From NCBI GenBank assembly GCA_020137815.1, contig CM035350.1, positions 3,286,001 to 3,350,000 of the forward strand: DNA of 64,000 bases, written 5' to 3'. A program made the position numbers and the translations under genes. The first letter of the stretch is position 1; every line of letters begins with the position of its first letter. This document shows, piece after piece, positions 1,021-50,802 of this stretch. This DNA comes from Hormiphora californensis. Taxonomy: Eukaryota; Animalia; Ctenophora. The notes under the pieces are model-generated. The model made no database searches and had not been told where the DNA came from. It was given only the letters and a program-made list of their open reading frames with translations.

Positions 1021-3127
1021 CTAAAGAGTTTGTACAAAACAAAGTTAAACAAGAATATTAATTAAATATTAACGTATACCTCAACAAAAATCCGTCGACC
1101 CCCCCCCCCCCTCTGGCCTTAATTGAATATTAATTGCACTAATAGTAGTAGCTATAGTGCCATGTTTCTCTACCTTCACCTGCATGTGATATGACCACTT
1201 TTAATTGGTCAATGAGATTGAGAATACTGAAACCTGAGACAAAGCAGATGAGCTGTTTTATAATTAGCCTCGCTATGTGATCTCACAAGCAAAAAAATCT
1301 TAAAAATCAAATTACACTTACTTCTGAGGTGATCCACTTGCTCTTTGTGCGTCTTTCCATGGCACCTCCACGCCATACCAAGCAAACCTTCAGTTGGAAG
1401 TGGAACTAAATTTATGTTATTTACTTGTTTAGTAATTCGCCATTTATTTATGCTGCGCCATAATTTTAATAAATTCGAAACTGAGGTCGATGAAAGTTGA
1501 ATTTGATCCAATTTATGCCTTAATTAGGCCCTAATTGGTCAATTATTTACCAATAAGGGTGAATCCTTATTGGTAAGTTTAAGTTAAGTTTAAGTTTAAT
1601 CACTATTTATCACAAAGTCAATATAAAAATATTAAAACCTTGTCCCGCTCTTACACCAAACATATTTAATATAAATAGATATAAAAAATAAGCTACAAGG
1701 CTGATGTGAAAGCACCAGCGGTTACCTAAAGCGGGTTAAGCTAGTTCACGATACAATGAGGCAGATAACATCAGCATAAACTGCAAAATTTATTAACTGA
1801 GATACAACGGCTTTTGAAAAAGTGCACAAACAAACCAACACAGCCCGCAGACAAACAAAACGAACAAACAACCAAACAAATAAATAAGCAAACAAACAAA
1901 CAAGTTAACACTAAACAGACAGGCAAACAATAAAGTTAACAAACAAGCATACATACAAACAAACAACAAAAGAACAGTCAATAAATAAATAAAACAAAAG
2001 GTACAAGTGAACATCAAAATAATAACAACAGAACATAATATCAGATGAGACACACGGTTAATAGGTAATAATAGAGTTCAGCATCACGAATAGTTTATTG
2101 TCCATACATGGCATAGTTTTTTATCGGTAAAAACGTTAAAACGGTATGTATGGATCTTCTTTCTTCTTTCGTTTCTCCCTTTAGACTCAGTCAATCTGGA
2201 GCCTCATCTACTCAGACTCTACACAAACTCGTAGGCCAAGATACACTTAAAACAGAAAAAACACACTAAGAACCTAAAATTCTCACTACTCTGGCTTGGA
2301 TGATCCCTCTACTAAGTCTCATGAAGATGTAGGAAGGACAGGGAAAGGGGAAATGAAGCAGGTTAAGGAGGGGAGCAGCAGGTTAGGGAGGAAGCAGCAG
2401 TGCAGGTTAAGGTTGGTATCGAAGACACCTCACACTCTGTTTAGAGGTATCAGAAGGGCTTGCCCTATTTTTATAGCGCGCCCAAAACGTTATACTGAGC
2501 ACTGAAAAGTTGTAGTCTACACTACATAGTTCTAGCTAAGGGGTTTGAGCCGCGCACAGGGCCACACCGAGACCAAATCTCGTTACTTTCCTGATTTCTT
2601 TGACACAAACAAGTATTGCAGAGCGGCCAATAGAGCTGGCGGTTTCAAACTTCGTCCGTATTCGGAGGGATAGATTAGCAGTTCAGTGTTTCAAACCAGG
2701 TTTAATTTGGCAAAGTAGAAGCTGAGTTACAACATGTTTTGTACAAATGGTTCAACTTGAAGACCTTTTAATTTTGATGGCAGACCTTTCAAGATAGAAA
2801 CTTCAAAACTTTGCCACGATCTTTGATATGATGTTAAGCATACCTGACCTACTTTTTCAAAAAATTTTTTCATCATTAACACCTAAAACTGATTTCAAAC
2901 CAAGGTTCCGGGGATAATTTTTTAAATATGAGTACAGAATTATAATTTTCAGACAATTTGGTGGGGAATACCAAAATTGTGTGTCATTTTCATTGAGTGG
3001 TTGAGGAGCTATTAATTTTTGAAGTGAATCAAGCGGGTTTGTTACCCCTACTCAGGCCGCTTCGCGGCCTTCGTTTGGCGTGCTTCGCACGCCGCGCCGG
3101 CAAGGGAGGGGTAACTTCGTTACCAAA

Positions 3128-3527: not shown

Positions 3528-3654
3528 TAATGTAAATGTAAATGTAAATGTAAATGTCAATGATGAGATCTTGTTCAGGATTAAATAGGGAGGAAAATTA
3601 GAAAAATATCACAAACTCGTAGGCCAAGATACACTTAAAACTACACTTGTTCCG

Positions 3655-4060
3655 ATAAATGTAAATGTAATATAATCATTTATATATACCAATTTATAGT
3701 GTAAAATAATGGAGCACGCACCAACAGCCTACGCTTGACATACTCTCTCACTTTCAAAAGTGGTACAGATACAAAACACGAGCATAACAAAACACGAACA
3801 TACAAACACGAACATAAACACGAACATACAAAACACGAACATACAAAACACGAACATATACCGAAACTTTCAATGAATAGATGATGTTTCAGGTACTTTT
3901 TGAACTCTGCAACAGAGGCTGATTCTCTTAGGAGTCGTGGTAGACTGTTCCATACGACTGGACCAGCTATAGAGATACCACGTTTAGTAACATTGTGTCG
4001 AAGCTTGAGCCTACAGTGTATTTTCTCTTCCAACAGGGTACTATCGTCGTCCGCTCTTAG
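3655..4060 (-). mobile_element. 5'-truncated L2/CR1-group LINE: ORF2 C-terminus, 3' UTR and (CATTTA)n tail
   Basis: The peptide RGISIAGPVVWNSLPRLLRESASVAEFKKYLKHHLF matches the typical L2-clade ORF2 C-terminal motif (R.FS.AGP..WNSLP..LR...S...FK..LKT.LF). A short microsatellite tail follows at about 3657-3670. Confidence 0.8.
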
Positions 4061-4557
4061 TCCAATCTGTTTTCTCTGCCTCATTCCAACCCTCTGGGTA
4101 CCCACCCCCTTATTGGCATGGGGTCCAACCAATAAGGTCATGAACCCCCCCAACGGTTGTCACACACAATTAAGACGCTGCACGTAAAACGGGGGATGGG
4201 AAGTTCAACTTCCGAAGTTGAAAGTGTGCTGTTGTGTGACAACTTCAAAAAATACGACTTTAGAGACTTCATCATTGGAAAGATCTTGCAAATCTTTTCA
4301 AAACAATCGTTATCAGCATCATTTTATCAGGAAGCGGACTACGGAGACGGGAGATCAGAGATGTCACGACTCACGAGAAACGTTGGGGGGAGGACGACAG
4401 TTGAAAAGAAGGACTTTAAAAAATGTTTTTAAAAAGGCGATTTTTTTATTTTTTTTTTAACGGGGGGAAAAGTTTTAATTAATTACACCCAGAGCGGCGC
4501 GGCACCATTTTCGCAGCGTTTTTAAAAACTTCCTCGCCGCGGCGCTCTAAAAAAGTA

Positions 4558-6553: not shown

Positions 6554-6595
6554 GTTTCAAACTTTTCAACACTACTTTAAACAAATTAATTTGAG
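6554..6595 (+). other. Genomic copy of a ctenophore-type spliced-leader exon fused to a downstream 5' UTR
   Basis: GTTTCAAACTTTTCAACACTACTTTAAACAAATTAATTTGAG matches the Pleurobrachia-type SL as I recall it (not searched). It is followed by GCGGC, not by a GT donor and SL-RNA intron, and an ATG lies 33 nt downstream. Confidence 0.7.
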
Positions 6596-6628
6596 GCGGC
6601 ACCCTCCCTCAAATTTCCCGTGTAGACA

Positions 6629-7699
6629 ATGTCAAACACCAAAGTGGAGGGCATCGATAGCCCAAAAGATACTGAAACCAAGCCGGCGCCGAAAACATCC
6701 GATAAGCCGAAGGACCCGATAGTCAAGAGAGAAATGGAGGATCGAGCAGCAGCTGTAATCGTCAAACTGGTATCGTTGTCTGCCGAAACACACCCGCTCG
6801 CTCAAAAAATGCTCCTAGCCTATAAATTTGGTGCGAGTATAACAACCAATATCAGTAACCTGGGTAAACCCTCCCGTCCGGAAGCTTTGGAGGCCGCGGC
6901 TTTCCTCGGTATAATACAGGAGGCCGATCGCGATCCCTCTAGCTCGGGTGGTAAGAGACCGGCCAAAAATCGGCAAACCTTAAGCCACCGGATCATCAAG
7001 AAGATAGAAAGCCTGTTCCCGGCTCGGTGTACTGACTGCTCCGCCTTATACCAACCCGATTTTGAAGAGACACATATTCACATGCTGGTCATGTTAACCG
7101 ACACTCCCATGACTGTGAAGTTATCAGCGAGCGCGTGAGAGGCCATCGCAAAATTGGAAAGAGTGAGGAATAATGGTTTCAAATGGCTTTGCTTGGAATG
7201 TTCAGAAAAAACAAGTCTTTCACTCAGAAAGTCACTGACCCTGTACGAAATAGGACCCAACCCCCCAGAAGATCATGAAAATGATAAGAATGGTCCAGCT
7301 GGAGAATATTCACAATCCGACACCATTGACCTGTCCCAGATTGATGCCTCTCAACAAGTTAAAGATGAGGAATCAAAACAAGTGGAGAAAAAAGAGCAAC
7401 CCCCCTTTGAAAGGATCTCCAAGCCATGTAGCTTCTTCCGCAAAGGAAATTGTCGACACGGTCCAGACGGCACCAAGGAAGTGGACGGACAGACCTGTCG
7501 ATACGTACACAAAGCTCCTGTCATCCCCCCTACCCAACCACCAGCCGGAGTCACGGACCCAGTTGGCGAAACTGATTGCCAGGTTTTTGTTGAATATGGA
7601 AGATGTGAGCATGGAATAAATGGAAAAATCAGAAGAGGAACGGTCTGGCCAGGAATACATCCCAGAAGTATGCAGCACAAACATGGTTTATTAACATAA
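6629..7699 (+). mobile_element. Frameshifted, 3'-truncated LINE ORF1-like protein (PHD-like and CCCH zinc fingers)
   Basis: ORFs 6629-7138 and 7154-7699 join across frameshifts. Motifs CTDC...FKWLCLEC (PHD-like), CSFFRKGNCRHG...CRYVH and CQVFVEYGRCEHG (CCCH-like) are typical of CR1/L2-group ORF1. No ORF2 follows. Confidence 0.65.
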
Positions 7700-17058: not shown

Positions 17059-36911
<19,853 letters not shown>

Positions 36912-37340: not shown

Positions 37341-44644
<7,304 letters not shown>

Positions 44645-44837: not shown

Positions 44838-46026
44838 ATGTAATGTAATGTAATGTAATATATGCATTTAATATACCACTTTCTAGTGTAAATAATACGG
44901 TGTCCGTATTGATAGCCAACGCTATACGAACACACACACTTCCTAAAGTGGTTATAAGACCAAAAAACACGAACGTTCTACGTAAACATACGAAACGAGT
45001 TAGTAACCCATTTTAATGATCCCGTTTTGAATGTAATATTTCCCATTTGGATCTTCCAGTCTAAGCCTCTTTACGGTTTCTACTAGTTGTTTTCGTTCCT
45101 TTTGTTGAACAGGAGTCAGATCCGGTGAGAAAAATACAGATGAAAAGTTTTCCGATTGTTTCAAGAGTTTTGCTTTCCTAAGAAGTGCAAACAGAGATTC
45201 TCTGCTCTCCAGAGAGATAACCAGTGGTCTCGTTTTGGAACTTGAATCCAGTTTTTGGCCGACTCGTTTCATTGATTTAGTAACAGGTTTCTCATTTAAC
45301 TCTTCGAATAGTTCTTTCACTGAGATTGAATCAACTCGGGTCGTAGACTCAGGTAAACCAAACACCACGAGGTTTTTAGCTCTATCAGGCTCCACCACTG
45401 CATTGCTAGACGCTGAGCTCCGAGGGGTTGCTGCATTTTTCACTACCTTAGGGGTGATCACAGAGCAGTTTTGACTCAAAACGGTAGAATATGCTTTCAT
45501 TTTAGCAACAGAACTGGACGTAGACTCGAGATGGCGGTCTTGTAGAGCGATAATCTTCTTCTGTAGGTCAATTACAGAGATCCGATGCTTATCAAGTTCC
45601 TCCTTGCATTTCTGCATGCGCAGTTCAGCTTCTTTCACTTTACAATCCATGACATGCTGAGAATTCATATACCGATTTACAACACGTATACTGCTAACAA
45701 TAGTCCTGCTACTCAGATTAATAACCTCCTCAATGCTACAGTTTTTGAACGCATTCCTTAACATTCTATCATGATCGTCGATTTGGGCGTCACTGCTAGT
45801 GTACCTCTTGATTTTAGCATGATCAATGTCCCAATCTTGAGGGTTGGGATTAGCTTCCATTTCTTTCCGGCAGTCAGGGTTGAAGATCATTGAAAGATGA
45901 AGAGCCCATGTTGCGATTGAGTCATCATTTATCATAGGGCTATCACCCTTCTCCTCTGTCGTTGTCATTTCTACACCTAGAGGCCGAGCCTCAATAAATA
46001 GTTTTACGTTGTAGTTGATGAAAGTT
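44838..46026 (-). mobile_element. ORF1-only non-autonomous non-LTR element: SL-like 5' end, intact ORF1, L2-like 3' UTR and (CATTA)n tail
   Basis: SL-like AACTTTCATCAACTACAACGTAAAACTATTTATTGAG at 46026-45990, then ORF1. The 3' UTR at 44999-44860 aligns with the LINE 3' end at 3660-3800, and a (TAATG)n tail is at 44838-44858. Confidence 0.75.
45000..45968 (-). CDS. L2/CR1-type ORF1 protein (coiled coil + RRM-like + C-terminal domain), 322 aa from the ATG after the SL-like segment
   Basis: Intact ORF (an in-frame upstream ATG is at 46040). Motifs RAKNLVVFGLPE, KRVG...TRPLVI and LRKAKLLK...VFFSPDLTPVQQKERKQL are characteristic of CR1/L2 ORF1. Confidence 0.8.
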   Translation of the reverse strand: MTTTEEKGDSPMINDDSIATWALHLSMIFNPDCRKEMEANPNPQDWDIDHAKIKRYTSSDAQIDDHDRMLRNAFKNCSIEEVINLSSRTIVSSIRVVNRYMNSQHVMDCKVKEAELRMQKCKEELDKHRISVIDLQKKIIALQDRHLESTSSSVAKMKAYSTVLSQNCSVITPKVVKNAATPRSSASSNAVVEPDRAKNLVVFGLPESTTRVDSISVKELFEELNEKPVTKSMKRVGQKLDSSSKTRPLVISLESRESLFALLRKAKLLKQSENFSSVFFSPDLTPVQQKERKQLVETVKRLRLEDPNGKYYIQNGIIKMGY

Positions 46027-46449
46027 CTAGTCAAGCTCATTAGCTCTAACTTTTGCCTAACAGACGGTCAATAACAGATGCCCTTCAAAAAATATGTAGA
46101 TTTTAAATTTGCCCCCTCTCGTTTGGGCGCCGTTGCGATCTGCTTGTTTGGTGGCCTGTTTACAGGTGTGTGCTACCAAAAAAGTTGATTCACTAAAATG
46201 GCTCTAACCGCCAAACCACTCAACCGTTTTGGCTAATTCGTTTATCTGGTAGGAAATGTCAAGGCCTAACCCCAGCCTAAACCCCAGCCCTAATCCTAAC
46301 CATACTTTAGCCCTAACCGGTAACCTTGGCCTATGCTACAGGCCCTAGAAGCCGTGGAAAACGCGCGCACTTGGGGTCTGCAGCGCATGCCAACCGGTAA
46401 CCCTAAAAACCGTTTGTCAGATTTTGACGCTGGCCCTCGCGCTCTCGTT

Positions 46450-47812
46450 TACGGTGGCTGATTCACGCCAACTTTTTTCTCGATGAAAAAATATCAAAGA
46501 AAAATTACGAAGAAAAATTTCAATGAAAAAAAACACACACAAACTTTTTTGGCGTGAATCAGCCACCAGCCATGGCTGATCTCCGCCAACGTTTCACAAA
46601 AAAACGTTGGCGTGAATCAGCCACCCCATGGCTGATCCACGCCAAGTAACGTGTTTCGACCTAGAACTCACTAGAGGCAAGCCAATTCCGGTTGTACATC
46701 CTAGGTATGGGTCTCCTGAACATGAAAAACCAAAATGTCAGTCTCAATTGTTTGGGGGGAGGTGTGTAATTAGCCCCTAATTGATTGGTAATTGAGCATA
46801 AGGAGAAAAACGCTGTATATACCCTTAGGAAAGGAGAAGAGACACAATTAAGGGCACCAAAGTGTTCAGCGTCCTCGCATTATTGGGGATAGGTGCCAGA
46901 ATTAAGTCTCTATCTCATCTGGTTAATTGGATAATTGGATAATTAAGTATGCATATAGCCGTTTGCTGGCCATATGGCTATAAGCCACTTAGGAATGGTT
47001 TAGAGACTTTTCATTGGTGCCATTTTGAAGGCAATGGCCAAGTTATGGGGGGTCGATGTCGGACTTTTAAGCTCTATCTTCAACCGTTTAGCCGTTATTT
47101 GGCTTTAAAGGTGCTCAAAATTAGCAAAAAACGGTAAAAAGCCCGATTTTGAGCACCTTTAAAGCCAAATAACGGCTAAACAGTTGAAGATAGAGCTTAA
47201 AAGTCCGACGTCGACCCCCCTTAACTTGGCCATTGCCTACAAAATAGCACCAATGAAAAGTCTCTAAACCATTTCTAAGTGGCTATAGCCGTATGGCCAA
47301 AAACGGCTATGTGCATACCTAATTATCCAATTATCTAATTAACCAGATGAGATAGAGACTTAATTCTGGCACCTATCCCCAATAATGCGAGGACGCTAAA
47401 CACTTTGGTGCCCTTAATTGTGTCTCTTCTCCTTTCTTAAGGGTAGATACAGCGTTTTTCTCCTTATGCTCAATTACCAATCAATTAGGGGCTAATTACA
47501 CACCTCCCCAAACAATTGAGACTGACATTTTGGTTTTTCATGTTCAGGAGGCCCATACCTAGGATGTACAACCGGAATTGGCTTGCCTCTAGTGAGCTCT
47601 AGGTCGAAACACGTTACTTGGCGTGGATCAGCCATGGGGTGGCTGATTCACGCCAACGTTTTTTTGTGAAACGTTGGCGGAGATCAGCCATGACTGGTGG
47701 CTGATTCACGCCAAAATATTTTTTGTGTTTTTTTTTTCTTTGAATCTTTTTTTCTTCTTTTTTTTCTTTCGATTTTTTCTATTAAAAAAGTTGGCGTGAA
47801 TCAGCCACCGTA
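46450..47812. mobile_element. 1.36-kb foldback element, IS3EU-like (TACGG...CCGTA termini, 6-bp TSD)
   Basis: Long inverted arms with repeated GGTGGCTGATTCACGCCAA. CTCGTT lies at 46444-46449 and 47813-47818 directly outside the termini. Confidence 0.8.
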
Positions 47813-48260
47813 CTCGTTTTTCTAGAGCGGGAAAAAGTTCAACATTAACCTGCGCGCCACACTGTGGCAGCGTGAGCACATGGATTTAACGCGTGTTCCA
47901 GTCACTCTATTTATACGTCTCTGCGCGGCGGTACGCTGTACTGTGCTATTTTCCATTTTGAAATTTTGTGTCCAAATTTGGCAAAATCCCTTTTGCTAAG
48001 GTCTTGGAATGTGCTACATAACAGCCTCCTCATGCGTATGCCAAGCACTTTCCGGGTGACAAGCAGTCGGTAACCCCTTTAAATTGCATAATACATACCG
48101 TGAATAGCAGTGACTTTTTATCTTTCGAGTTTTGCGACAAAATCTCACACCCAACACTTCCCCGCGGCCTCAAAATATTATTATTTATTATTAAATCTGT
48201 TTACAATAACTTGACACTGTCAATATTGTCAAAATATAAACATAATTACATTTTTGTAGC

Positions 48261-49454
48261 ATGACTGATAGCGAAGCAGAGAAAGAGGTCGAAAACCTAA
48301 TTTCAGTATATAAAGAAGCATGTAAGAAAGTCGAAAAACCTCCCATCAACAAATTTGTGGAGTTTCTCAACCTTGTCGACAAGGAAAATGAGCCTTCAAT
48401 TGATGGATATAACATTGACCTCAGTGGGAATCTTCCAGAGTTCAAATACAACCGGCTCGATCATAACGATGCTATCGCAATTGCTAGGGAGCTCAGCGAG
48501 GACTTTATCATTTCAGATCTGAACCTTTCCTTCAACAACATTGAAAACACTGGTGCCATTGCCCTCGGAAAGTCTCTCCAGGACAATAAGTTCCTTGAAT
48601 CACTGGACCTTTCCATGTGTGACATTGATGTCAAAGGAGTTGAGGCAATCTGCACTGGCCTACAAATGAATGACAACCTGAAACGGTTGAATCTCAAGGG
48701 GAACAAGTTTGGGAGGCAGGGTGGCATTCTTCTCTCTGCAACTCTTCAGGTTAACTCCACCCTCCGTGATTTGAACATTGCAGACACAGACCAGACAAAC
48801 GAGAGTCTTATTGCCCTGACAACGGTCCTTCATCATAACACCACTATCAAAAAGCTGGATGTGAGCAATCCCCTACTTGTGAGCGAGCAAGAGGAAACCA
48901 CTGTCCACTTTTCCAAAATGCTCAAAGTCAACTATGGGCTGACTGAGTTGAGGCTCTGCAAACACGGAATCATGGACTTTGGAGCTAGTCAGCTGGCGGA
49001 TGCCCTTTGCGACAACAACTCTCTCCTTTTCCTTGATTTAGGATGCAATAAGATCAGTGAGGATGGAGCCAGAGCGCTGGCCGGGCTCATCCGACAAAAC
49101 ACTCCCCTGAAAAAGTTATCTCTGACCTCCAACAGGATCGGTGACAATGGAGTTGTAGTGATCAGTGAGGCCGTCGCTACTAACAACTGTAATCTCACCA
49201 CCCTCATGGTAAACAATAATGGTATCACGGAGAAGGGTCTGTGTGCTGTAGCTGCGGCCCTTCGTCTCAACATCACCCTCACCAATGTCTACATCTGGGG
49301 CAATGAGCTGAGGAACACAGCGTGCGATGCTTTTGAGCGGCTGATGGATGGAAACAAACCCCGGATTCTACCTCATAACACGGATATTGAGCCATACAAA
49401 GTAGATGGAGTTACCTACCTGTCCGAGGCTGGACACTACCTATTCTCTCATTGA
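48261..49454 (+). CDS. LRRC34: Leucine-rich repeat-containing protein 34 (RI-like LRRs), copy 1, intronless, 397 aa
   Basis: 28-aa RI-like LRRs with LRRC34-type motifs PLLVSEQEETTVHFSKML, LCKHGI, LDLGCNKI, VYIWGN and NTDIEPYKVDGVTYLSE. Confidence 0.88.
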   Translation: MTDSEAEKEVENLISVYKEACKKVEKPPINKFVEFLNLVDKENEPSIDGYNIDLSGNLPEFKYNRLDHNDAIAIARELSEDFIISDLNLSFNNIENTGAIALGKSLQDNKFLESLDLSMCDIDVKGVEAICTGLQMNDNLKRLNLKGNKFGRQGGILLSATLQVNSTLRDLNIADTDQTNESLIALTTVLHHNTTIKKLDVSNPLLVSEQEETTVHFSKMLKVNYGLTELRLCKHGIMDFGASQLADALCDNNSLLFLDLGCNKISEDGARALAGLIRQNTPLKKLSLTSNRIGDNGVVVISEAVATNNCNLTTLMVNNNGITEKGLCAVAAALRLNITLTNVYIWGNELRNTACDAFERLMDGNKPRILPHNTDIEPYKVDGVTYLSEAGHYLFSH

Positions 49455-49617
49455 ACTTTTATATCAGATAAAATCCAGATTTATTGTTTAGACTGTTGAA
49501 AGTGTTGAAATTGTAAAAATAAAATTGAAATTGTTCGCTTAGAAATTGAGAAGTTTGTTTTCTCCAAACTCTGTCGTCCATTACTTTCTACCTCAATATA
49601 AACGAATTTTGCCCAGG

Positions 49618-50802
49618 ATGGACCCGCTCGAAAACACTGAAAGTCCAGAATGCCAGCGGCTTAAAAAGTTATATTTCGATGCCTGTGAGGAGCATGGATG
49701 TTTCCATCTCGATCCCCTCGTTGACATTCTGGAAGGACACAGCCCTCATGGAACACGTCTTATCCTCCGGGGAAACATGAAAATGTTCAGAAAGAAGGCC
49801 CTCACGGACTCTGATTTCCTTGCCATGGCTATGGTCCTCAGAACGGACACTTTTATAACTCGTCTAGACCTCTCCTACAACTCAATCAGCGATGAAGTTT
49901 GTGTAGGTCTGGGGGAGGCAATTGCAAAGAACAAAACCCTCAAACAGCTCAACCTTTCGATGTGCGATCTAAGCGTTGATGGTTGTTTTGCGATTTGTAA
50001 GGGCCTGGAATTCAATTATGCCATCACCCACGTCAACATGTCGGGCAACAGTTTCGGTCGGGATGGCTCTGTGGAGCTGGCTGCCACCCTCCAACTAAAC
50101 AACACCATAACCCACCTCTACCTATCATCCACCCACCAAACCGCCCAGAGCGTTATTCCTGTGTGTACTGTGGTTAGCTGTAATGGTACGGGAATCCAAC
50201 ATTTAGATCTCTCCCGGACCATCCCTCCCTCAGACCCTGAGGTGCTGGGCGAGCATGTCAACAGGCTGCTAGTCCTCTGCAACACTCTCACTTCCCTTCG
50301 GCTGGCTAAGTGCGATCTGACTGATGTTTGTGTGAAGATTATCGCACCTGCACTTGTACAAAATGTAACCCTGACCTCTCTTGACCTGTCCTGTAACAAA
50401 ATCTCCAGCGACGGCGCCAAGACTCTAGCTGAGGTGCTGCGGGCGAACCAAACCCTACTGGAACTAAAGATGTGTTCTAACCGTATAGAGGACGAGGGTA
50501 CAGTGGCACTGGGTCTGGTACTTTCTAGTGGGAATGATACCCTGAAAAAGCTGTGGATAACAAACAATTCGGTGACGGGCCGAGGTTTGTCTTCCCTGGC
50601 TAACGCCCTTCAATTCAACATGACCCTATCCCACGTGTACATTTGGGGTAATGCTCTCGACAATATGGCCTGTAATGCCTTCTCTCATCTTCTTATGGGA
50701 GAGACACCTAGATTGAGGAGTTCAAATGTGGACATAAAACCATATGTGGTGGACGGGGTTAACTATCTGGCGGAACAGGGTCGACATGGATTCTCCCATT
50801 AG
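49618..50802 (+). CDS. LRRC34: LRRC34 paralog, copy 2, intronless, 394 aa
   Basis: Colinear with copy 1 (LNLSMCDL, LDLSCNKISSDGA, HVYIWGN, VDIKPYVVDGVNYLAE, ends FSH). First ATG at 49618. Confidence 0.85.
   Translation: MDPLENTESPECQRLKKLYFDACEEHGCFHLDPLVDILEGHSPHGTRLILRGNMKMFRKKALTDSDFLAMAMVLRTDTFITRLDLSYNSISDEVCVGLGEAIAKNKTLKQLNLSMCDLSVDGCFAICKGLEFNYAITHVNMSGNSFGRDGSVELAATLQLNNTITHLYLSSTHQTAQSVIPVCTVVSCNGTGIQHLDLSRTIPPSDPEVLGEHVNRLLVLCNTLTSLRLAKCDLTDVCVKIIAPALVQNVTLTSLDLSCNKISSDGAKTLAEVLRANQTLLELKMCSNRIEDEGTVALGLVLSSGNDTLKKLWITNNSVTGRGLSSLANALQFNMTLSHVYIWGNALDNMACNAFSHLLMGETPRLRSSNVDIKPYVVDGVNYLAEQGRHGFSH

What the first reader, a model, noticed from the sequence alone, without database searches (positions are those of the whole stretch)
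44838..46030. Complete ORF1-only retroelement: SL-like head, intact ORF1 and a borrowed L2 tail
Seen: ORF1 stops at 45000 and is followed directly by about 140 nt of 3' UTR and (CATTA)n, with no ORF2. The UTR aligns with the RT-bearing LINE end at 3660-3800 (ATGTAATATATGCATTTAATATACCACTTTCTAGTGTAAATAAT vs ATGTAATATAATCATTTATATATACCAATTTATAGTGTAAAATAAT; AGCCAACGCT vs AGCCTACGCT; CACTTCCTAAAGTGGT vs CACTTTCAAAAGTGGT). Just 21 nt before the ATG is a 37-nt segment resembling the SL at 6554 (AACTTT.CA..ACTAC...TTGAG). Established: L2-type RTs recognise 3' tails, and ORF1-only elements such as HAL1 exist. Inference: a protein-coding non-autonomous element mobilised in trans by an L2 LINE and 5'-processed by a second SL variant. 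Together with 6554-7699, this points to an SL-dependent retrotransposon life cycle.
Basis: partly seen in the sequence, partly recalled or inferred. Interest (0 to 1): 0.85.

Follow-up and report, generated by a model that had tools for sequence, protein, structure and literature searches.

The report
Leader-capped, tail-swapping comb-jelly half-retrotransposon
A small jumping gene of a comb jelly keeps only its RNA-binding protein gene, starts with what is likely a second form of the leader that these animals splice onto messenger RNAs, and ends in a tail shared with a different, complete jumping gene that likely does the copying for it.

Summary
Confirmed and extended. 44838-46026(-) is a 37-nt head, 21-nt 5' UTR, intact 322-aa ORF with LINE-1 ORF1p fold, 140-nt 3' UTR 70% identical to an APE-RT LINE end and (CATTA)n; no ORF2. 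It is a family: relatives at 41-85% protein identity; two (L001, L002) also run ORF1-UTR-microsatellite, with different tails; dN/dS 0.16-0.20. The head behaves as a trans-spliced leader: identical on a 44%-identical relative and, translated, in a PHD-type LINE gene model; the published ctenophore leader replaces it at the same junction in L003 and in an RNA contig. The tail-donor group has an unrelated ORF1, so the tail looks borrowed, not left by deletion. Not shown: the leader's gene, L2 clade by phylogeny, that trans-splicing is required. The window's LINE end holds no RT domain itself. Known parts: HAL1/HeT-A/Ag-Sponge, dinoflagellate leader retrocopies. This scan noted leader-headed LINEs before in dinoflagellates and Euglena, and an ORF1-only element in tunicate leader genes. 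New variant.

The parts
45990..46026 (-). Head: 5'-shortened copy of a likely second trans-spliced leader ('SL-B'), ending in AG at the junction
   Evidence: 37/37 identical in L001; stand-alone 42-nt contig with 0 differences in RNA run X18 and many DNA contigs with unlike flanks on both sides; with L001's 5' extension 34 identities, 5 mismatches, 6 gap columns against the leader at 6554
45969..45989 (-). 21-nt 5' UTR
   Evidence: sequence; partly conserved in L001, with a 10-nt exact block
45000..45968 (-). Intact ORF1, 322 aa: predicted coiled coil (79-149), RRM (about 195-283), C-terminal domain (286-321), LINE-1 ORF1p-like
   Evidence: Foldseek best hits human L1 ORF1p, E 3.4e-6; VIA Z 10.4, rmsd 2.7 over 88 residues; no Pfam family above cut-off
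44856..44999 (-). 3' UTR shared with an APE-RT LINE; predicted long stem-loop 44875-44952
   Evidence: 70% identity to 3670-3860; fold z -2.29; two-sequence consensus fold differs in part
44838..44855 (-). (CATTA)n microsatellite tail
3658..4090 (-). Comparator: 5'-truncated 3' end of an APE-RT LINE (last ~77 aa of ORF2, 3' UTR, (CATTTA)2); candidate tail donor and helper family
   Evidence: 84-88% identical to C-terminus of P0262, 930 aa, PF00078 + PF03372
6554..6595 (+). Comparator: canonical ctenophore leader ('SL-A') heading another element
   Evidence: last 42 of 44 nt of the leader printed in PMC8527503; its last 26 nt equal the first 26 nt of L003
1575..1760 (-). Comparator: a second tail type, related to the tail of relative L002
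   Evidence: local score 109.5 vs maximum 50.5 of 500 shuffles; blastn 74% over 90 nt, E 4e-8

Best explanation
This is a young, intact copy of a family of ORF1-only non-LTR retroelements of a pleurobrachiid-type ctenophore, whose head is likely a retrocopied trans-spliced leader and whose LINE-type tail likely lets an APE-RT LINE copy it in trans. Steps: (1) the element RNA is made, source of transcription unknown (inferred: read-through from flanking DNA); (2) a leader, SL-A or SL-B, is joined at one fixed junction 21 nt before the ATG (shown as two leaders at one junction; the splicing reaction is inferred); (3) ORF1p is translated and probably coats the RNA or joins the helper's particle (selection shown, role inferred); (4) the helper ORF2p recognises the 3' stem-loop and microsatellite and reverse-transcribes from it (shared tail shown, mechanism from known stringent LINEs); (5) copying to the RNA's 5' end writes the leader into DNA, usually a few nt short (shown). 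The lineage has changed tails more than once, so it behaves like a SINE that switches helper LINEs while keeping a protein gene.
For: Family: 13 clusters at 42-84% identity; 44 of 47 full-length members (318 aa or more, with a contig on record, of 65 members listed) lie on contigs under 2 kb, longest 3.5 kb, while three ORF2 relatives lie on 4.4-6.1 kb contigs. L001 and L002 show ORF1-UTR-microsatellite with no ORF2; L003 ends at the stop codon and cannot tell. dN/dS 0.163 (bootstrap 0.11-0.25), 0.196, 0.193 for the three pairs among L001-L003; dS saturated for the three pairs with the window. Head: 37/37 in L001, whose ORF is 50% identical in DNA and 44% in protein; translated head in 7 of 270 stored proteins, each with different upstream residues (only models extended upstream of the ATG can show it); P0042 has the head and L003 has SL-A before the same following sequence; RNA contig 25 of run X18, a 90% relative, has 9 loose letters at 45994 that are the SL-A end. 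In DNA runs X1 and X15, 25 and 16 contigs go on beyond 46026 with letters that match the start of the published leader and then disagree (agreement 0.47, 0.48); 24 and 21 contigs leave the stretch at 45988-45991 into unlike sequence (32 further loose-end rows not shown). Two RNA contigs of X18 join the head to unrelated sequence. Tail. Borrowed: gene model P0270, 70% identical to P0262 over 480 RT-region residues, has the same head but a PHD/zinc-knuckle ORF1 with no match to the family profile. Switching: L001 and L002 are 86% identical in the ORF but their UTRs barely align (score 37, 2 of 300 shuffles reach it); neither matches the window UTR; L002's matches another tail in the window; contigs in X1 and X15 branch at the ORF1 stop.
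Against: No SL-B gene (head followed by GT and an Sm site) was found, and the two unrelated RNAs behind the head were not identified as ordinary host mRNAs; they may be other retroelements. The 21 nt after the junction are partly conserved between the window and L001, so some of the head's constancy could be selection on the element's own 5' end. All read data are contigs: no strand, start site or level; RNA runs may hold DNA. One X1 contig (record 6) matches only up to 45989 with 26 unlike letters upstream, not explained. P0270 is a predicted, partly duplicated gene model, and the ORF1 of P0262 itself was not seen. Tail identity to the window's LINE end is only 70%, so the true helper may be a sister family (an X1 contig shares 55 nt of tail at 2 differences and then runs on unlike). 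Of 4 differences between this copy and the collapsed X1 contig, 3 change a residue, too few to test.
Confidence: 0.75

Rival explanations
1. The head is a once-captured leader that now is the element's own fixed 5' module (for example an internal promoter), kept by selection and passed between families by recombination; trans-splicing with SL-A only happens to some transcripts.
For: Partial conservation of the UTR just after the head; all translated heads found in stored proteins were SL-B type, none SL-A (7 of 270); a promoter role for retrocopied leaders is proposed for dinoflagellates (PMC5585692 passages); no SL-B gene found.
Against: Exact identity stops at the AG: the P0042/L003 subfamily and the PHD-type LINE P0270 have different sequence right after it; identical in two organisms whose element bodies differ by about 10%; shares 5' start and terminal five letters with the published leader. 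The SL-A reading frames hold stops or may simply not be in frame, so the protein count is biased.
Confidence: 0.13
2. The copies are processed pseudogenes of one or a few fixed source genes (a domesticated ORF1 or a master element with its own promoter and outron); leader-headed copies are dead ends.
For: A leader on a retrocopy shows only that the RNA was trans-spliced once; an X1 contig departs from the window exactly at the junction (record 6) and might be such a source; purifying selection would fit a host gene too.
Against: Many subfamilies over 41-85% identity, each with several intact members, three different LINE-type tails, and no intron seen in four loci; that contig does not show the AG an outron would end in.
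Confidence: 0.09
3. A one-off internal deletion of the LINE whose end lies at 3660, with a chance leader-like stretch.
For: Head likeness to SL-A is weak within the window alone.
Against: Same ORF1-UTR junction bridged in contigs of 4 of 4 runs and in X18; relatives with the same layout; identical head elsewhere; unrelated ORF1 in the tail-donor group.
Confidence: 0.02

Closest known systems
ORF1-present bipartite non-autonomous LINEs: HAL1 (L1 clade), HeT-A (Jockey clade), Ag-Sponge (CR1 clade) (PMC5786205 and PMC5753468, passages seen; Bao and Jurka 2010 not held)
   Same: ORF1 only, LINE-type 3' end, multi-copy, ORF1 kept under selection, presumed moved in trans.
   Different: Those are described as internal deletions keeping the 5' and 3' parts of one parent LINE. 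Here the 5' end is a spliced leader, the tail-donor group has a different ORF1 type, and tails differ between close relatives.
SINE-LINE pairs of stringent LINEs, UnaL2/UnaSINE and ZfL2 (PMC1636434, PMC4176376: search listing and abstract starts only)
   Same: Shared 3' tail with predicted stem-loop and short tandem repeat; head derived from a small RNA.
   Different: SINE heads carry a Pol III promoter (recalled) and SINEs encode no protein (PMC5786205 passage); this element encodes a 322-aa protein and its head is likely added by splicing.
Leader-relict retrocopies of dinoflagellates (PMC5585692 passages)
   Same: A trans-spliced leader is written into DNA by reverse transcription, often 5'-shortened; an AG in the relict is named as a possible new acceptor.
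   Different: There host genes with degenerate relicts; here a selfish family in an animal, head intact and ending at the junction, no tandem relicts seen.
Trans-spliced transposon transcripts in Hydra (PMC12220107 passage)
   Same: About 30% of TE long reads carry a leader.
   Different: The passage seen reports RNA only, not leader-headed genomic families.
Dispersed leader copies in ctenophore genomes (PMC8527503 section 37, read whole)
   Same: 718 copies in Hormiphora and 491 in Mnemiopsis; the leader at 6554 is this sequence.
   Different: Called spliced-leader loci there, with no link to retroelements in that section and one leader form printed.
NeSL-1, SLACS, CZAR, CRE (recalled; also named in earlier notes)
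   Same: Non-LTR elements found next to leader sequence.
   Different: They insert site-specifically into leader genes with an RLE endonuclease (recalled); here flanks upstream of the head are all different and the head lies 5' of the element in sense, as part of the copied RNA.

Membership tests
ORF1-only non-autonomous LINE (HAL1/HeT-A/Ag-Sponge kind) | encodes a LINE ORF1 protein | tested here: met
ORF1-only non-autonomous LINE (HAL1/HeT-A/Ag-Sponge kind) | no ORF2 between ORF1 and tail | tested here: met
   window, L001, L002 directly (3 of 4 loci; L003 ends at the stop); contig lengths 44 of 47 under 2 kb; not shown for every copy
ORF1-only non-autonomous LINE (HAL1/HeT-A/Ag-Sponge kind) | multi-copy family, ORF1 under purifying selection | tested here: met
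   (dN/dS 0.16-0.20 among L001-L003)
ORF1-only non-autonomous LINE (HAL1/HeT-A/Ag-Sponge kind) | 5' and 3' parts come from one parent LINE by internal deletion | tested here: inconclusive
   closest tail-donor relative with a visible ORF1 has another type, which speaks against; ORF1 of P0262 itself unseen
HAL1 in the strict sense | L1-derived with poly(A) tail (recalled) | tested here: not met
   microsatellite tail and non-L1-type 3' UTR
Trans-spliced leader exon | same short sequence at the 5' end of unrelated RNAs, ending at a fixed junction | tested here: met
   the unrelated RNAs are unidentified and contigs give no strand or start
Trans-spliced leader exon | interchangeable with a known leader at one acceptor | tested here: met
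   L003 vs P0042; X18 contig 25
Trans-spliced leader exon | donor gene: exon followed by GT and an Sm site | tested here: inconclusive
   no genome held; loose-end consensus cannot resolve it; 0 matches in viral and prokaryote collections, where none is expected
Trans-spliced leader exon | hypermethylated cap on a small RNA | not testable with these tools
   needs RNA work
L2 clade (helper LINE) | APE endonuclease plus RT in ORF2 | tested here: met
   P0262, P0269; shared with several clades
L2 clade (helper LINE) | RT groups with L2 references in a tree | not testable with these tools
   no named reference RTs were at hand; motif likeness to the L2/CR1 group is recalled only
SINE | non-coding, Pol III small-RNA head | tested here: not met
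   322-aa ORF under selection; no Rfam match over the element
NeSL/SLACS/CRE (leader-gene-targeting elements) | insertion at a fixed site inside leader RNA genes | tested here: not met
   sequence upstream of the head differs among all loci seen

The most novel reading that the evidence does not exclude
A promoter-less, self-renewing retroelement: the retrocopied leader's own terminal AG serves as the next trans-splice acceptor, so any read-through transcript is cut back to an exact, capped, full-length element RNA; ORF1 is the only inherited core, the host supplies the head each cycle and different LINEs supply exchangeable tails ('a protein-coding SINE'). The same route would serve the autonomous LINEs and account for many of the hundreds of dispersed leader copies in ctenophore genomes, with SL-B perhaps favoured on element RNAs.
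Probability: 0.4. Interest if true: 0.87.

Novelty: new variant of a known kind. Interest (0 to 1): 0.7.

Why it matters
How non-LTR elements get a promoter and a defined 5' end after each jump, and why ORF1-only elements keep their protein, are standing questions. Here a young intact copy, subfamilies across a wide range of divergence, two leader forms at one junction and a candidate helper make both testable in an animal with sequenced genomes. It also offers an explanation for the hundreds of scattered leader copies reported in ctenophore genomes and warns that such copies can corrupt gene models (several predicted proteins carry the translated head).

Tried and rejected
No own genome was held, so copies could not be collected. 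Pfam and PDB sequence searches did not name the ORF (only weak coiled-coil hits); fold search did. Search for longer ORF1-ORF2 fusions: none among 7986 candidates, weak evidence; the one long hit, P0073, is a gene model fused to a PSF3 domain. Viral and prokaryote collections: no relative, no head. Contig depths were far higher over the head than over the ORF in X1, X15 and X18, and higher over the element than over flanking unique contigs in X1 (284 vs 38-56), but the tool states that depth is no copy number or level, so they are not used as evidence. RNA run X10 covered the 3' part but not the head and X12 had one head contig in a genomic-looking context: absence in contigs proves nothing, but only 1 of 3 RNA runs laid showed the branching head. 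The idea that 1575-2230 is another ORF1-only element was not supported (no tblastn hit). Rfam: nothing over the element. Two-sequence covariation is too thin to support the tail fold. ESM Atlas could not read the LINE fragment; the stored homologue P0262 gave only generic RT clusters. Literature: searches listed no paper describing leader-headed or ORF1-only LINEs in ctenophores (0 papers with all four terms; one unrelated hit for a head motif); only listings were read for most. Derelle et al. 2010, which reports several ctenophore leaders (recalled), is not held, so SL-B may already be in print; PMC3795323 lists no ctenophore leader in the passages found; PMC5890265 passages showed no leader-LINE link. 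No supplements were read; those of PMC8527503 may bear on repeats and leaders.

Full report
Observation. On the minus strand, 46026-44838 reads: 37-nt head, 21-nt 5' UTR, an ORF of 322 codons with its stop at 45000, 142 nt of UTR and (CATTA)n. The UTR aligns from just after the stop codon to the tail with the LINE end at 3670-3860: 103 identities in 147 columns, score 101 against at most 52 in 300 shuffles. The head's likeness to the leader at 6554 is modest within the window (3 of 2000 shuffles reach the score; one other site scores as high). No exact target-site duplication lies at the junctions. The sequence at 6554-6595 is the last 42 nt of the 44-nt leader printed for Hormiphora (PMC8527503), and the closest named proteins are Pleurobrachia bachei gene models, so the host is a pleurobrachiid-type ctenophore (inference). 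No whole genome was held.

The protein. Pfam and PDB sequence searches give nothing above cut-off. A model from 28 relatives (mean pLDDT 61; 76-88 in most blocks of the C-terminal part) shows a long helix, an RRM and a small C-terminal domain. Foldseek ranks human LINE-1 ORF1p in places 1-11 (best E 3.4e-6) and VIA-align in places 1-3 (Z 10.4, rmsd 2.7 over 88 residues; ordinary RRMs follow at 8.4). A profile finds 4946 representatives at E 0.001 or better: a widespread ORF1 type.

It is a family without ORF2. Thirteen clusters at 42-84% identity were found. Of 65 members listed for ten clusters, 47 are full length with a contig on record; 44 of these contigs are under 2 kb, median 1374, longest 3525, whereas three ORF2 proteins sit on 4.4-6.1 kb contigs. 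Short contigs can also be fragments, so this is indirect. Direct: of three loci fetched, L001 and L002 run ORF1, about 200 nt of UTR, microsatellite; L003 stops at the stop codon. The ORF1-UTR junction is bridged by contigs in all four runs and in X18. dN/dS is 0.163 (bootstrap 0.11-0.25) for L001-L002 and 0.19-0.20 for the two pairs with L003; with the window dS is saturated while pN is about 0.4. The window copy differs from the collapsed contig of run X1 at 4 of 1041 letters: a young insertion (inference).

The head behaves as a leader. L001, 44% identical in protein and 50% in DNA, has the same 37 nt, extended by 5 nt at the 5' end, after unrelated flank. The translated head appears in 7 of 270 stored proteins, each after different residues: five close relatives, P0042 of a 41% subfamily, and P0270, a LINE gene model. 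L003 begins with the last 26 nt of SL-A followed by the sequence that follows the head in P0042. In RNA run X18 a 556-nt contig of a 90% relative carries the SL-A end at the same junction; the head itself is a stand-alone 42-nt contig with no difference, and two contigs join it to unrelated sequence. In DNA runs X1 and X15, 25 and 16 contigs extend past 46026 with letters matching the start of the published leader and then disagree with each other, and 24 and 21 contigs leave into unlike sequence at the junction (32 rows not shown). An X15 contig of the element begins exactly at 45994, where the two leaders part, as expected if genomic copies bear either (inference). Against: no donor gene was found, the unrelated RNAs are unidentified, the 21 nt after the junction are partly conserved, one X1 contig departs at 45989 without the head, and contigs give no strand or start.

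The tail is borrowed and has been swapped. The LINE end encodes the last ~77 residues of an ORF2, 84-88% identical to P0262 (930 aa, endonuclease + RT); the window copy has no RT domain. Its relative P0270 (70% over 480 residues) has a PHD finger and zinc-knuckle-like ORF1 with no match to the family profile; it is a partly duplicated gene model, and P0262's own ORF1 was not seen. L001 and L002 are 86% identical up to the stop and then barely align; neither matches the window UTR; L002's UTR matches a second tail at window 1600-1790 (score 109.5 vs at most 50.5). Contigs in X1 and X15 branch at the ORF1 stop. Four of the six tails folded have z of -2.0 to -2.8 with a long basal stem; the LINE end gives -1.1 and a short element at 3545 +1.6. 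L2 membership is not tested; the motifs look like the L2/CR1 group from recall.

Mechanism. Most likely (0.75): element RNA receives a leader at a fixed junction, ORF1p is made, a helper LINE's ORF2p recognises the tail as in stringent LINE-SINE pairs (PMC1636434, PMC4176376, abstract starts) and copies the RNA up to or near the leader's 5' end. Shown: layout, family, selection, two leaders at one junction, shared and exchanged tails. Inferred: splicing reaction, helper action, ORF1p role, source of transcription. Because a genomic copy has the old leader directly before the junction and that leader ends in a T-rich stretch and AG, the old head could act as the next acceptor; this would renew the head each cycle and explain identity across distant families (0.4, untested). 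Rivals: head as the element's own promoter module (0.13), dead copies of a source gene with an outron (0.09), one-off deletion (0.02).

Comparison. ORF1-only LINE derivatives are known (HeT-A, HAL1, Ag-Sponge; PMC5786205, PMC5753468 passages) but as internal deletions of one parent. Leaders are retrocopied in dinoflagellates, where both a promoter role and re-use of an AG are discussed (PMC5585692 passages). Hydra TE transcripts are trans-spliced (PMC12220107 passage). Ctenophore genomes hold 718 and 491 leader copies, not linked to retroelements in the section read. Ten paper searches listed no description of this combination; Derelle et al. 2010 was not held, so the second leader may be known. 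Earlier notes of this scan report leader-headed LINEs in dinoflagellates and Euglena and an ORF1-only element in tunicate leader genes (unchecked); none matches this sequence.

Verdict. Real, a family, and a new variant of a known kind: host-supplied head, ORF1 core, exchangeable LINE tail. Interest 0.7.

Noticed in passing
window 6554-7699 (+): Element headed by the canonical leader, with an ORF broken into two frames near 7138; PHD-like cysteines (by eye) and weak CCCH hits. Its 5' UTR could encode the same four residues that follow the head in gene model P0270.
   Followed up: partly
window 1575-1760 (-): LINE-type tail with stem-loop and (AAACTT)n, related to the tail of L002; no ORF found upstream.
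   Followed up: partly
window 3530-3657 (-) and about 2220-2300: Another short element ending in (CATTTA)4, unrelated to the tail studied; part of it recurs near 2220-2300.
   Followed up: partly
window 46046-47812 and 43500-44300: High-copy repeats flank the element, with nested inverted repeats (46450-46645 vs 47618-47812) and telomere-like runs; MITE-like.
   Followed up: no
run X1, records 2, 4 and 6: One contig shares 55 nt of the tail and runs on for 440 unlike letters (candidate closer helper); one has the ORF1 end with another 3' sequence; one departs at 45989 without the head.
   Followed up: no
proteins P0087/P0253: A distant ORF1 of the same type (31%) lies on 4.3 kb contigs, the size of a complete LINE; possible autonomous relative.
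   Followed up: no
proteins P0001, P0004, P0073, P0270: Public gene models contain the translated head or element pieces fused to other sequence, including a PSF3 domain: annotation artefacts.
   Followed up: partly
window 17584-19201: Two near-identical open frames in inverted orientation.
   Followed up: no
window 48246-50802 (+): Two tandem, apparently intronless leucine-rich-repeat genes (by eye).
   Followed up: no
window 20830-36911 (+) with 23811-24719 (-): Exons resembling a calcium-channel alpha2/delta subunit with a receptor-like seven-helix ORF nested on the opposite strand (by eye, recalled likeness).
   Followed up: no
window 32500-33640: Long homopolymer-rich purine/pyrimidine stretch that looks like low-quality sequence.
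   Followed up: no
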